Shown piece after piece: positions 32,989-61,780 of a stretch of DNA of 64,000 nucleotides. Below the pieces are notes generated by a model. It was not told the DNA's origin. It saw nothing but the letters and a program-made list of their open reading frames with translations, and searched no databases. Location: positions 21,198-85,197 of the forward strand of contig CAXHJY010001670.1 in the NCBI GenBank assembly GCA_964016885.1, read 5' to 3'. A program made the translations under genes and the position numbers. This DNA is from Eledone cirrhosa (taxonomy: Eukaryota). Positions within the stretch are counted from its first letter, which is position 1. Every line of letters begins with the position of its first letter.

Positions 32989-33101
32989 TGGCTTCTACAG
33001 GACTAGAACCTTTTCATTCGAAGGAAATCATCATGAAAGCCCTGGTGATTTCCTTCGAATGAAACAGTTGTAGTCTTGTAGAAGCCATTTCTATATTAAA
33101 C
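32989..33101 (+). mobile_element. Fold-back mini-element family A with decayed HHR
   Basis: Inverted arms tggcttctacaggactag.../...gtagaagcca; core reads CTGGTGA...GAAACAG...GTA. Confidence 0.65.
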
Positions 33102-41435: not shown

Positions 41436-41436
41436 T

Positions 41437-41560
41437 ATCCCGGGTTCAATCGGGAGTAACAATAGTAAGTAAGGTACTCAATGCATAGTAGAGTATAAAT
41501 ATTTAATAGGGAAATGGCTTCTACAGGACTAGAACTGTTTCATTCGAAGGAAATCATCGA
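41437..41560 (-). mobile_element. Family A mini-element truncated within the HHR core
   Basis: Homologous to 50040-50170. Confidence 0.65.
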
Positions 41561-49944: not shown

Positions 49945-50041
<97 letters not shown>

Positions 50042-50124
50042 GTTATTCCGGGTTGAATCGGAGGTAACCACAGTAAGTAAGGTACTCAATACATTGCAGA
50101 GTATAAAAGTTTTAATATAGATGA

Positions 50125-50173
50125 GATTCTACAGGACTAGAACTGTTTCATTCTTTAGAAATCATCAGAAATC
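50125..50173 (-). ncRNA. Type I hammerhead ribozyme motif
   Basis: gattt-CTGATGA-t-ttc(taaa)gaa-t-GAAACAG-ttctagtc-CTGTA-gaatc. Confidence 0.7.
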
Positions 50174-50179
50174 CCTGAC

Positions 50180-50228
50180 GATTCCTGATGATTTCTAAAG
50201 AATGAAACAGTTCTAGTCCTGTAGAATC
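50180..50228 (+). ncRNA. Type I hammerhead ribozyme motif
   Basis: gattc-CTGATGA-t-ttc(taaa)gaa-t-GAAACAG-ttctagtc-CTGTA-gaatc. Confidence 0.75.
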
Positions 50229-50437
50229 TCATCTATATTAAAACTATATATATATATATATATATCTGTGTGTGTATATATATATACACACACATACATA
50301 CATACACTATGATGGTGTAAGGTGTATCCTTCAATAGATTACTTTGTCTTTGAAATTACCTGTTAAAATGATTTGTGGGGCTATACGCACACACACACAC
50401 AAAACGCACACGCACACATATATGTATATATATATAT

Positions 50438-58869: not shown

Positions 58870-60120
58870 ATAATGGTTTCTACTTTTGGCACCAGGCCAG
58901 CAATTATCCCAGTGCATTACTGGTACTTTATTTTATCGACCCCCGTAAGGATGAAAGGCAAAGTTAACCTCGGCGGGATTTGAACTCAGATCATAAAGAG
59001 AGGTAACTCTATGCTTCAAAGCATGGCGCCCGACCCTCTACCGATACTGCCAATCCACAATCGTTTTGGATTTAAGCACAAGATCAAGAATTTGTTTGTT
59101 TTGTTGGTTGTTTTTTTGGGGTGGGAGGGTGGGTGGAGTCGATTAAATCGATCTCAGTGTGTAACTGGTACTCTTTATTTTATCGACATTTTTTAGAATG
59201 AAAGGCAAAGCTGACATGGGCGGGATTTGAACTCAGAACGCAAAGAGAAGTAATTATATGCTTCAACAAAATAATGGATTCTGATTTAAACACAAGGCCA
59301 ACACTTTTGTGGGAAAGGGAAAGTCGAACAAATTGAGCCCCAGTGCATAACTGGTACTTTATTTTATCGACCCCCGTAAAGATGAAAGGCAAAGTTCACC
59401 ACAGCGGGATTTGAACTCAGGTCGTAAAGGGACGGGACCAAATACCGCAAAGCACATTGTCCGACGCTCTAATGATTCTGTGATTAATACTAATAATAAT
59501 TGTTTCTACTTTAGGCACAAGGCCAGCAATTACCCAGTGTATTACTGGTACTTTATTTTATCGACTTTTTAAGGATGAAAGGCAAAGCTAACTTCGGCGG
59601 GATTTGAACTCAGCATGTAAAGGGCCGTTTCTCGACGCTCTACCGCCTTCGTAGTAGGTATAATGCGGAGGTTAACTTTGCCTTTCATCCTTACGGGGTC
59701 GATAAAATAAAGTACCAGTAATGCACTGGGCTAATTGCTGGCCTTGTGCCAAAAGTAGAAAAAATTACTATTTTGATATATAATTCTTTATGATAAAGTG
59801 GTGGGTTGGTAGAATTGGTAGAGCGATAAAATGCCATTGCATTATTTGCCCTGGTCCTTACGTTCTGAGTTCAAATCTTATCGAGGTCAACTTTGCTTTT
59901 TATCTCTCCAGGGTCGATAAAATAATGTACCAGTCAAGTTCTCGGGTAGATTTAATCAGCTTTGCCTTTTATCTCTGCCAGGGGTCGATAAAATAAAATG
60001 CCAGTCAAGTACTGGGGTTGCTAAAATAAACTACCAGTCAAATACTGAGGTTGATTTTATCAACTCTGCCTTTCTTCCCGCCAATAAAATAAAGTACCAG
60101 TCAATTACTGGGGTTGGACT
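58870..60120. mobile_element. Dense SINE cluster (about four minus-strand then plus-strand copies)
   Basis: Common family motifs repeated. Confidence 0.8.
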
Positions 60121-60357: not shown

Positions 60358-61067
60358 TTAACCAACTTTACTTTTCCCTCAAATTTTCTGGCCTTGTGCC
60401 TAAATTAAAATCAACATATTATTTCTTTTGATTTCAGAAAAATATTTCTCGTCGTTTTATTTCTCAGTATTTTCCCCCTTCTATCTGGATATATGTTAAA
60501 TTAAATGATAAAACTGTGATTGATGTTTTTTTTCCTGTAACATTCTTTCCATGAAACAACACAGTCATTATATCTAACCGTGTTTTATGAGTATTGTAAA
60601 TGTTCATTATATAATGGTATATACCGATTTCTTTATCGTTAATTGGAAATCCTAATCTTTCTGCACATGCTATTAATAAATTATATTCTCCTTTGGTTTA
60701 TCTGATTGAAAATATCTGATGAAAGTTCCATATATTCTCGTCACTCTCTTCTAATAAACCAGTTCCTGATAAAATCTAACCAATGATCTTTAACAGAAAA
60801 TTTCTACACCTCCATAATACACCACAGAGAATATGAATTGACTGGTTTTATTATATATTAATATATATTAATAGAATTTTTACTAAACGAGAAAATAACA
60901 AGACCATGTTAATGGATTTACAACCACTAGAAAATATACTTATACATCGACCTACAAGAGAACAGATGTCTTGAGCTAACTGAGTCTCACTCAGGTCTTA
61001 TGCAGTCAGAACTACCAGATAAACCACTCTAGATAGTGACTGATATACTGATATATATATATATATA

Positions 61068-61126
<59 letters not shown>

Positions 61127-61139
61127 TTAATATAGATGA

Positions 61140-61188
61140 GATTCTACAGGACTAGAACTGTTTCATTCATTAGAAATCATCAGGAATC
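61140..61188 (-). ncRNA. Type I hammerhead ribozyme motif
   Basis: Reverse complement of 61350-61398. Confidence 0.75.
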
Positions 61189-61349
61189 TGGGTATCAAAA
61201 AATAAATATGGTATTTATAGGTCTCTACAAGTGGTAGGAGAGGGTGGGGAGTGGGATGGGTGCAGGTCATTGGTTGACCCATCCCACTCCCCACCCTCTC
61301 CTACCACTTGTAGAGACCTATAAATACCATATTTATTTTTTGATACCCA

Positions 61350-61398
61350 GATTCCTGATGATTTCTAATGAATGAAACAGTTCTAGTCCTGTAGAATC
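61350..61398 (+). ncRNA. Type I hammerhead ribozyme motif
   Basis: gattc-CTGATGA-t-ttc(taat)gaa-t-GAAACAG-ttctagtc-CTGTA-gaatc; all core nucleotides present, GUA cleavage triplet. Confidence 0.78.
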
Positions 61399-61481
61399 TC
61401 ATCTATATTAAAACTTTTATACTCTGCTATGTATTGAGTACCTTACTTACTGTGGTTACCTCCGATTCAACCCGGAATAAC

Positions 61482-61529
<48 letters not shown>

Positions 61530-61607
61530 TATTATTATTATTACATATCCCTAATTCTGTGTTTCAAGAAAAGTTTTTTATCGAGACAATTGTAATAATA
61601 ATAATAA

Positions 61608-61780
61608 TAATTGTTTCTACTTTTGGCACAAGGCCAGCAATTACTCAGTGCATTACTGGTACTTTATTTTATCGACCCCGTAAGGATGAAAGGCAAAGTT
61701 AACCTCGGCGGGATTTGAACTCAGAATGGCAAGGGCCGTAACTCTATGCGTCAAAGCATGGCGTCCGACCCTCTACCGAA
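61608..61780 (-). mobile_element. tRNA-headed SINE
   Basis: Common family; tail abuts (TAA)n. Confidence 0.85.

What the first reader, a model, noticed from the sequence alone, without database searches (positions are those of the whole stretch)
61124..61482. Protein-free, rod-like fold-back element with a hammerhead ribozyme in each polarity, inserted in (TA)n
Seen: 138-bp inverted arms in which I find no mismatch, a 15-nt loop, a canonical type I HHR core (CUGAUGA/GAAA/GUA, stems I-III all pair) on each strand, and a fixed 68-bp tail. Known: Penelope-like elements carry type I HHRs in their pseudo-LTRs and often insert with an inverted 5' repeat. Inference: this is a recent insertion of a minimal Penelope-dependent unit. 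Transcription from either side would give an RNA that either self-cleaves or forms a long hairpin masking the ribozyme.
Basis: partly seen in the sequence, partly recalled or inferred. Interest (0 to 1): 0.75.

Follow-up and report, generated by a model that had tools for sequence, protein, structure and literature searches.

The report
Folded-back stub of a jumping gene
This mirror-image DNA with two self-cutting-RNA motifs is one young, truncated insertion of a very common Penelope-type jumping gene, a known layout, and thousands of sister copies carry end marks suggesting that such insertions are likely made by copying one capped, uncut RNA from two start points onto both strands of the target.

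Summary
The palindrome is real: 139-bp perfect arms, a mirrored type I hammerhead, a 68-nt tail, (TA)n on both sides. It is not a self-propagating minimal unit. Its junction occurs once in the genome, the 15-nt 'loop' is ordinary upstream element sequence, and the tailed arm is 207/207 identical to the pseudo-LTR of an autonomous Hydra-clade Penelope-like element with an intact 713-aa RT/GIY-YIG ORF. A 5'-truncated inverted copy with a tail at one end is the published PLE layout. The family footprint adds mechanism: 46 of 50 short fold-backs pair one tailed with one tail-less arm (none two-tailed); arms share template variants; 4,748 fold at the TATA-predicted start site, not at the ribozyme cut; and a non-templated G often precedes that site, as expected from copying a cap. 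Best model: two-strand priming from two internal sites on a capped, uncleaved sense RNA. Cleavage and expression are untested. The scan noted similar inverted Penelope stubs, a two-start-point idea and this family's 78-bp hammerhead satellite before, on other DNA.

The parts
61050..61123 (.). left (TA)n target microsatellite
   Evidence: a target duplication cannot be read inside (TA)n
61123..61277 (-). tail-less inverted arm: pLTR positions 380-534 of reference copy L046; includes the 15-nt 'loop'; outer end at the family's fixed tail-less end
   Evidence: 61124-61276 is 153/153 identical to pLTRs of ORF-bearing copies L136, L137, L141
61139..61189 (-). mirror copy of the type I hammerhead (predicted cut after 61145)
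61212..61219 (-). mirror TATA box, facing outward (left)
   Evidence: sequence; function inferred
61277..61277 (.). inversion junction, 1-nt overlap; unique in the genome
61277..61483 (+). tailed arm: pLTR positions 396-602
   Evidence: 207/207 identical to the 5' pLTR of intact-ORF copy L137
61319..61326 (+). TATA box, 30 nt upstream of the inferred start site
   Evidence: sequence; 3,200 TATA-to-ribozyme arms genome-wide
61349..61349 (+). inferred capped transcription start (A in an initiator-like context); family-wide fold-back and truncation hotspot
61349..61399 (+). type I hammerhead: stem I 6 bp, core, U.U, stem II 3 bp with 4-nt loop, stem III 4 bp with 8-nt loop holding a palindrome (self-dimer -12.8 kcal/mol); predicted cut after 61393
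61416..61483 (+). 68-nt tail = start of the element's 5' UTR; in full copies it runs on to the ATG 181 nt after the start site
   Evidence: 6,855 exact hits of a 36-nt tail word
61483..61526 (.). right (TA)n target microsatellite

Best explanation
This is a young, 5'-truncated, head-to-head inverted insertion of an autonomous Hydra-clade Penelope-like retrotransposon, likely made when the element's RT/GIY-YIG protein nicked both strands of a (TA)n tract and primed two cDNAs on the same uncleaved RNA. Shown: identity with the pLTR of intact-ORF copies; two fixed 3' ends 68 nt apart; one of each end per fold-back; shared variants in both arms; variable junctions. Inferred: one nick primes at the tailed site (+135 from the start site), the other at the tail-less site (+67); both cDNAs run toward the RNA 5' end and are joined end to end by microhomology or a few added bases. 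When the protein uses the 5' copy of the motif the cDNAs run off at the cap and give the very common ~200-bp mini fold-backs; this copy extends 72-88 nt beyond the start site, so it would have been copied from the 3' pLTR of a read-through transcript and stopped early. It is likely a dead end, not a replicating unit. It keeps two outward-facing core promoters, and any read-through RNA would be a 139-bp hairpin that masks both ribozymes. Odds: identity about 0.95, two-strand priming about 0.65.
For: Parent: 713-714-aa open ORFs directly downstream of the same pLTR and tail in 11 of 20 fetched long-frame loci by the ATG context printed; GIY-YIG (Pfam E 3.5e-5); Hydra motifs. End pairing: 46 of 50 centre-selected mini fold-backs are tail plus tail-less, 0 two-tailed, 4 without a recognisable tail (stricter: 38, 0, 12, p=3e-5 against independence). 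Same template: loop II identical in both arms in 40 of 50 (6.7 expected), 20 of 20 in young types. Hotspot: 46 of 78 tail-selected copies end 5' at reference 462-481, around the start site (468), not at the cut site (512); 4,748 fold-backs centred there; independent Illumina reads and contigs show the depth step and opposite-strand joints at the same place. Cap mark: template base is C, but G precedes the start in 32 of 69 distinct non-inverted (TA)n junctions listed (C 18, T 16, A 3; hand tally; script on the first 20: 10 G) and in 714 of 980 fold-back hits. Two cDNAs rather than snap-back: the tail-less arm is longer by 5 nt or more in 14 of 46 and the tailed arm in 10 (hand count); in this copy the tail-less arm is 16 nt longer. 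Agrees with in vitro data on an anole Poseidon element: both strands cut and extended, two internal start sites defining the tail, uncleaved RNA as main template, predicted dimer (PMC11167929).
Against: No RNA evidence: start site, expression and cleavage are inferred from DNA. The G count in fold-backs is confounded, since some junctions can be read as templated or snap-back bases, and a few non-inverted ones as (GA)n. The hotspot also coincides with a pyrimidine tract plus CAG, and in D. virilis Penelope an intron ends at the 5' edge of helix I (PMC4209133). In vitro the anole protein showed no strand difference in start-site use, whereas the pairing here is near strict. One of 47 tail-selected fold-backs (L041) has two tails. 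Later deletions at palindrome centres could also make arm lengths uneven; alignments of older subfamilies end a few bases early. The exact junction of this copy was not bridged by any piece listed, and no empty site was found.
Confidence: 0.75

Rival explanations
1. Same parent element, but the inversion arises by self-priming: one cDNA (or an antisense RNA template) folds back and is copied, as proposed for rotifer Penelope elements.
For: Explains identical arms and shared variants; many junctions hold short locally templated inserts; proposed in PMC3846280 (passages).
Against: Snap-back from the tailed cDNA predicts that the tailed arm is never the shorter at the junction, yet the tail-less arm is longer in 14 of 46 and in this copy (by hundreds of bases in L074 and L044). 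An extra G at the sense start site points to a capped sense template.
Confidence: 0.17
2. The fold-back is itself a non-autonomous unit (retrozyme- or MITE-like) that is transcribed and re-inserted by the Hydra protein in trans.
For: It holds both start sites and core promoters; some short junctions recur; an earlier AI note reports edited hairpin copies in this genome (e1-8673030, not reproduced here).
Against: Exact junction found once in the genome; junctions of long-armed copies all differ; own promoters face outward and would not transcribe the hairpin; no hyper-edited copy among 618 alignments screened; no tandem monomers at this locus.
Confidence: 0.05
3. Assembly or read-chimera artefact producing a false palindrome.
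For: Perfect palindrome on a small unplaced contig (85 kb); exact junction not bridged in the listed pieces of other samples.
Against: Flanks are not mirrored; the outer ends fall exactly on the family's two biological ends; fold-back joints of the family are seen in independent Illumina reads.
Confidence: 0.03

Closest known systems
Hydra clade of C-terminal EN+ Penelope-like elements (Craig et al. 2021, PMC8557442; passages, section 11, supplement parts read)
   Same: RT plus C-terminal GIY-YIG, RW(K/R), DKT, CxCX5C linker, CxxC..E..N..CxH, no CCHH, (TA)n targeting, hammerhead with CTGATGAT..TGAA U.U as in many listed Hydra ribozymes; inverted 5'-truncated copy and one-sided tail (Penelope-13_HM has such an inverted copy).
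   Different: Monomer about 4.9-5.1 kb with a 2-3 kb (TG/TA) low-complexity 3' UTR, against under 3 kb; tail 68 nt against 30-40; stem III with an 8-nt loop against 0-3 nt; ribozyme and protein differ from the listed Hydra-1_Obim, so a different family.
Poseidon element PAc of Anolis (Frangieh et al. 2024, PMC11167929; parts 1-2 of 4 read)
   Same: Two internal RT start sites define the tail; both strands cut and extended; AT-rich target; uncleaved RNA is the template.
   Different: Here the tail lies in the 5' UTR, not the ORF; the two sites are used in a near-strict one-per-arm pairing; the parts read describe no run-off at the cap and no mini fold-backs.
Penelope insertions of Adineta vaga (Arkhipova et al. 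2013, PMC3846280; passages) and min-HHR PLEs (Cervera and de la Pena 2014, PMC4209133; parts 1-2 of 4)
   Same: Inverted pLTR with optional tail, TATA plus Inr in the pLTR, palindromic junctions; dual hammerheads 100-700 bp apart on opposite strands attributed to truncated PLEs.
   Different: Those papers favour antisense self-priming or circular intermediates; the footprints here favour a capped sense template and two cDNAs.
Animal non-LTR retrozymes (PMC7229834, passages; bioRxiv 10.64898/2026.07.22.740005, passages)
   Same: Protein-free, type I hammerhead, PLE-related.
   Different: Retrozymes are head-to-tail monomers of about 220-400 nt giving circular RNA; this is a single head-to-head copy with a unique junction.

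Membership tests
EN+ Penelope-like element insertion | pLTR linked to an ORF with RT and GIY-YIG | tested here: met
   RT assigned by YRDD and by-eye match to the published alignment; Pfam gave no RT hit for the full protein
EN+ Penelope-like element insertion | 5' truncation, inverted copy, tail at one end only | tested here: met
   tail is 68 nt, longer than the published 30-40
EN+ Penelope-like element insertion | partial tandems forming pLTRs | tested here: met
   pLTR-ORF-pLTR in L137, L139, L141
Hydra clade | RWK and DKT motifs | tested here: met
   RWR and SDKT in the 713-aa ORF
Hydra clade | CxCX5C linker, CxxC and CxH around E and N, no CCHH | tested here: met
   against section 11 of PMC8557442
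Hydra clade | insertion into (TA)n | tested here: met
   3' flanks are mostly (TA)n
Hydra clade | short element (generally under 3 kb) | tested here: not met
   4.9-5.1 kb monomers in L139 and L141; a general trait, not a strict criterion
Hydra clade | phylogenetic placement with reference Hydra RTs | not tested
   reference sequences seen only as supplement text; no tree built
type I hammerhead ribozyme | conserved core and three pairable stems | tested here: met
   stem II arms constant while its loop varies; one compensatory change in stem I (98 against 4 of 138 contexts, probably one ancestral event)
type I hammerhead ribozyme | match to Rfam hammerhead models | tested here: not met
type I hammerhead ribozyme | self-cleavage | not testable with these tools
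   needs an assay
non-LTR retrozyme / non-autonomous unit | fixed monomer repeated head to tail or dispersed with the same structure | tested here: not met
   junction unique, head-to-head layout
non-LTR retrozyme / non-autonomous unit | circular RNA | not testable with these tools
   no RNA run could be laid

The most novel reading that the evidence does not exclude
Thousands of these fold-backs record the Penelope insertion reaction: a dimeric RT/endonuclease primes both target strands from two fixed sites on one capped, uncleaved sense RNA, one site per strand, and run-off at the cap mass-produces ~200-bp perfect hairpin stubs. This would explain PLE inverted repeats and one-sided tails in one step, map the element's start site from DNA alone, and make this family a large source of perfect double-stranded RNA and of a 78-bp hammerhead satellite.
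Probability: 0.5. Interest if true: 0.62.

Novelty: new member of a known kind. Interest (0 to 1): 0.42.

Why it matters
The copy itself is ordinary transposon debris. Its value is as an entry to a young, abundant Hydra-clade family whose ends speak to an open question named in PMC8557442 and PMC11167929: how PLE inverted repeats and tails form. The pairing rule, the start-site hotspot and the extra G give sharp predictions for the existing in vitro PLE assay, and naturally intact ORFs exist for it. Thousands of perfect hairpins could also feed RNA editing or small-RNA pathways in the host (inference).

Tried and rejected
Rfam at gathering and E<=10: only generic microRNA-hairpin matches, no hammerhead. 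Unconstrained folding does not favour the ribozyme. Sequencing-run search: no RNA holder listed, so expression was not examined. Search for an empty or allelic site with the left flank: single hit; other samples' contigs stop at the (TA)n. Self-BLAST junction script missed palindromes running through the centre and was replaced. First satellite core count used a wrong spacing, redone. PDB profile search and bacterial promoter scan were uninformative. Homologue search gave 1,399 unnamed relatives at about 40-53% identity among those listed. A-to-G hyper-editing screen: none of 618 alignments. Truncation at the ribozyme cut site as the main end: rejected, only a few copies end near 509-520. A 3' splice site as cause of the hotspot: not excluded, but junctions show no constant upstream exon. 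Literature searches showed no paper, by listing or in the passages read, that describes cap-ended mini fold-backs of PLEs; subscription papers and bioRxiv supplements were not visible and may bear on this.

Full report
Observation. The inverted repeat is real: arms 61123-61261 and 61277-61415, 139 nt, no mismatch, 15 nt between, with (TA)n on both sides. A hammerhead core lies at 61355-61377 (+) with its mirror at 61161-61183 (-); the window has 6 matches of that pattern against 0.76 expected. Stem I pairs 6 bp, stem II only 3 bp above a U.U, stem III 4 bp with an 8-nt loop. The predicted monomer fold is marginal (-5.3 kcal/mol, probability 0.03), while the stem III strand self-dimerises at -12.8, as expected for the dimer-acting, weakly active PLE ribozymes of PMC4209133 (parts 1-2 read). 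Rfam does not recognise it. Across 138 distinct core contexts the stem II arms stay constant while the loop varies, and stem I shows one compensatory change.

Family and parent. A 36-nt tail word has 6,855 exact hits in the 3.0-Gb genome. Long copies run upstream through about 600 nt of unique pLTR and 2-3 kb of (TG/TA) low-complexity sequence into a GIY-YIG domain. A protein search scored 150 of 71,622 candidates at about 90% identity. Among 20 long-frame loci fetched, 11 show the pLTR and tail (whole or in part) leading to the same ATG and a 713-714-aa frame. The protein has RWR, DKT, YRDD, a CxCX5C linker, YIG and CxxC..E..N..CxH without CCHH. These are the Hydra-clade marks of PMC8557442 (section 11), and the protein matches the published Hydra alignment motif by motif by eye; no tree was built. 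Many Hydra ribozymes in that supplement have the same U.U. The window's tailed arm is 207/207 identical to the 5' pLTR of intact copy L137, and its left arm 153/153 to L136, L137 and L141, so the insertion is young. That the host is an octopus comes from the scan's earlier notes and my recall of its SINEs, not from a label.

Not a unit of its own. The exact junction occurs once. The 'loop' is upstream pLTR kept only in the left arm, joined through one shared base. Of 78 tail-selected loci (the first 79 hits less one already fetched; two are a local duplicate), 47 have an adjacent inverted arm, and several more fold back kilobases away, inside or beyond the ORF. Junctions differ. This is the layout given for PLEs in PMC8557442 (passages) and PMC3846280 (passages).

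Footprints of mechanism. (1) Pairing: among 50 fold-backs chosen by their centre (the first 50 places), 46 have one tailed and one tail-less arm, none has two tails, 4 have none (38/0/12 under a stricter test; two loci are a duplicated pair). One of the 47 tail-selected cases has two tails. (2) Same template: loop II is identical in both arms in 40 of 50 (6.7 expected) and 20 of 20 young copies. (3) Hotspot: 46 of 78 tailed arms end 5' at reference 462-481, around window 61349, which lies 30 nt below TATAAATA at 61319 in an initiator-like context (consensus recalled); 4,748 fold-backs are centred there against 3,200 arms of the young type reaching the TATA box (the two patterns are not like for like). 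Independent Illumina reads and contigs show a several-fold depth step and opposite-strand joints at this place and a fall of over 100-fold after the tail. The cut site lies 44 nt downstream and is crossed, so the template was uncleaved. (4) Extra G: the template base before the start is C, yet G stands there in 32 of 69 distinct non-inverted junctions against (TA)n among the 100 rows listed of 440 (C 18, T 16, A 3; hand tally; 10 of the first 20 by script) and in 714 of 980 fold-back hits, though part of the latter can be read as templated. An added G is a reported sign of copying the cap (PMC4038843, passages). (5) Either arm may be the longer at the junction (14 against 10 of 46, hand count), which simple snap-back from the tailed cDNA does not predict.

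Model. The protein likely nicks both strands of (TA)n and primes two cDNAs at +67 and +135 on one capped sense RNA; they are joined where they stop. Use of the 5' motif gives the mini fold-backs; use of the 3' pLTR gives longer arms such as this copy. This extends PMC11167929 (parts 1-2 of 4), where both strands were cut and extended, two internal starts defined the tail and uncleaved RNA was the template, but no strand asymmetry was seen. The rival is self-priming (PMC3846280). A splice acceptor at the same spot is not excluded. All steps of the reaction are inferred from DNA; nothing was measured on RNA.

What the copy can do. Head-to-head arms mean that read-through from either side makes the complement first and forms a -269 kcal/mol hairpin that would mask both ribozymes. 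Only transcripts from the two outward-facing core promoters could expose one. No role is indicated.

Verdict. Observation confirmed, interpretation partly supported: a new family member of a known kind in a known layout. The scan had noted similar stubs, a two-start-point idea and the satellite on other DNA. The start-site, extra-G and pairing counts were obtained here; I saw no description of them in nine literature searches, which miss most subscription papers and bioRxiv supplements. Interest 0.42.

Noticed in passing
G000:C28:30,496,700 to about 30,870,000-30,880,000 (L167-L178, L236-L237): Satellite of 78-bp monomers made of this element's hammerhead, about 375 kb long; it starts as the tail-less arm of a fold-back insertion. 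Core intact in 89 of about 143 probed monomers. Already noted by the scan (e1-8668497).
   Followed up: partly
G000:C1:350,200,250-350,200,850 (L183): Eight-monomer piece of the same 78-bp satellite with no element ends, on another chromosome.
   Followed up: partly
window 50040-50245: Second fold-back of the family in the window, 66-nt arms folded at the inferred start site, opposite orientation.
   Followed up: yes
window 41436-41558 and 32993-33100: Older, diverged family copies: one tailed stub, one decayed mini fold-back.
   Followed up: partly
L139:5057-7341; L046; L044: The element's own 3' UTR is 2-3 kb of (TG/TA) microsatellite-like sequence, so part of this genome's simple repeats is carried by the retroelement.
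   Followed up: partly
L055:1929-4391, L097, L072, L054, L093: Several other Hydra-like PLE families near sampled loci, one with an 821-aa open frame.
   Followed up: no
window 61437-61450 (- strand): The tail reads as repeated GTAAGT splice-donor-like words on the antisense strand, and an older subfamily ends the same way; unexplained.
   Followed up: no
L145, L146: Two ORF-bearing copies begin near or just after the ribozyme cut site rather than at the start site; may be copies of cleaved RNA or TA microhomology.
   Followed up: no
window 59153-59760, 61596-61779: Cluster of SINE-like repeats flanking the locus, including a 154-nt pair at 89% identity.
   Followed up: no
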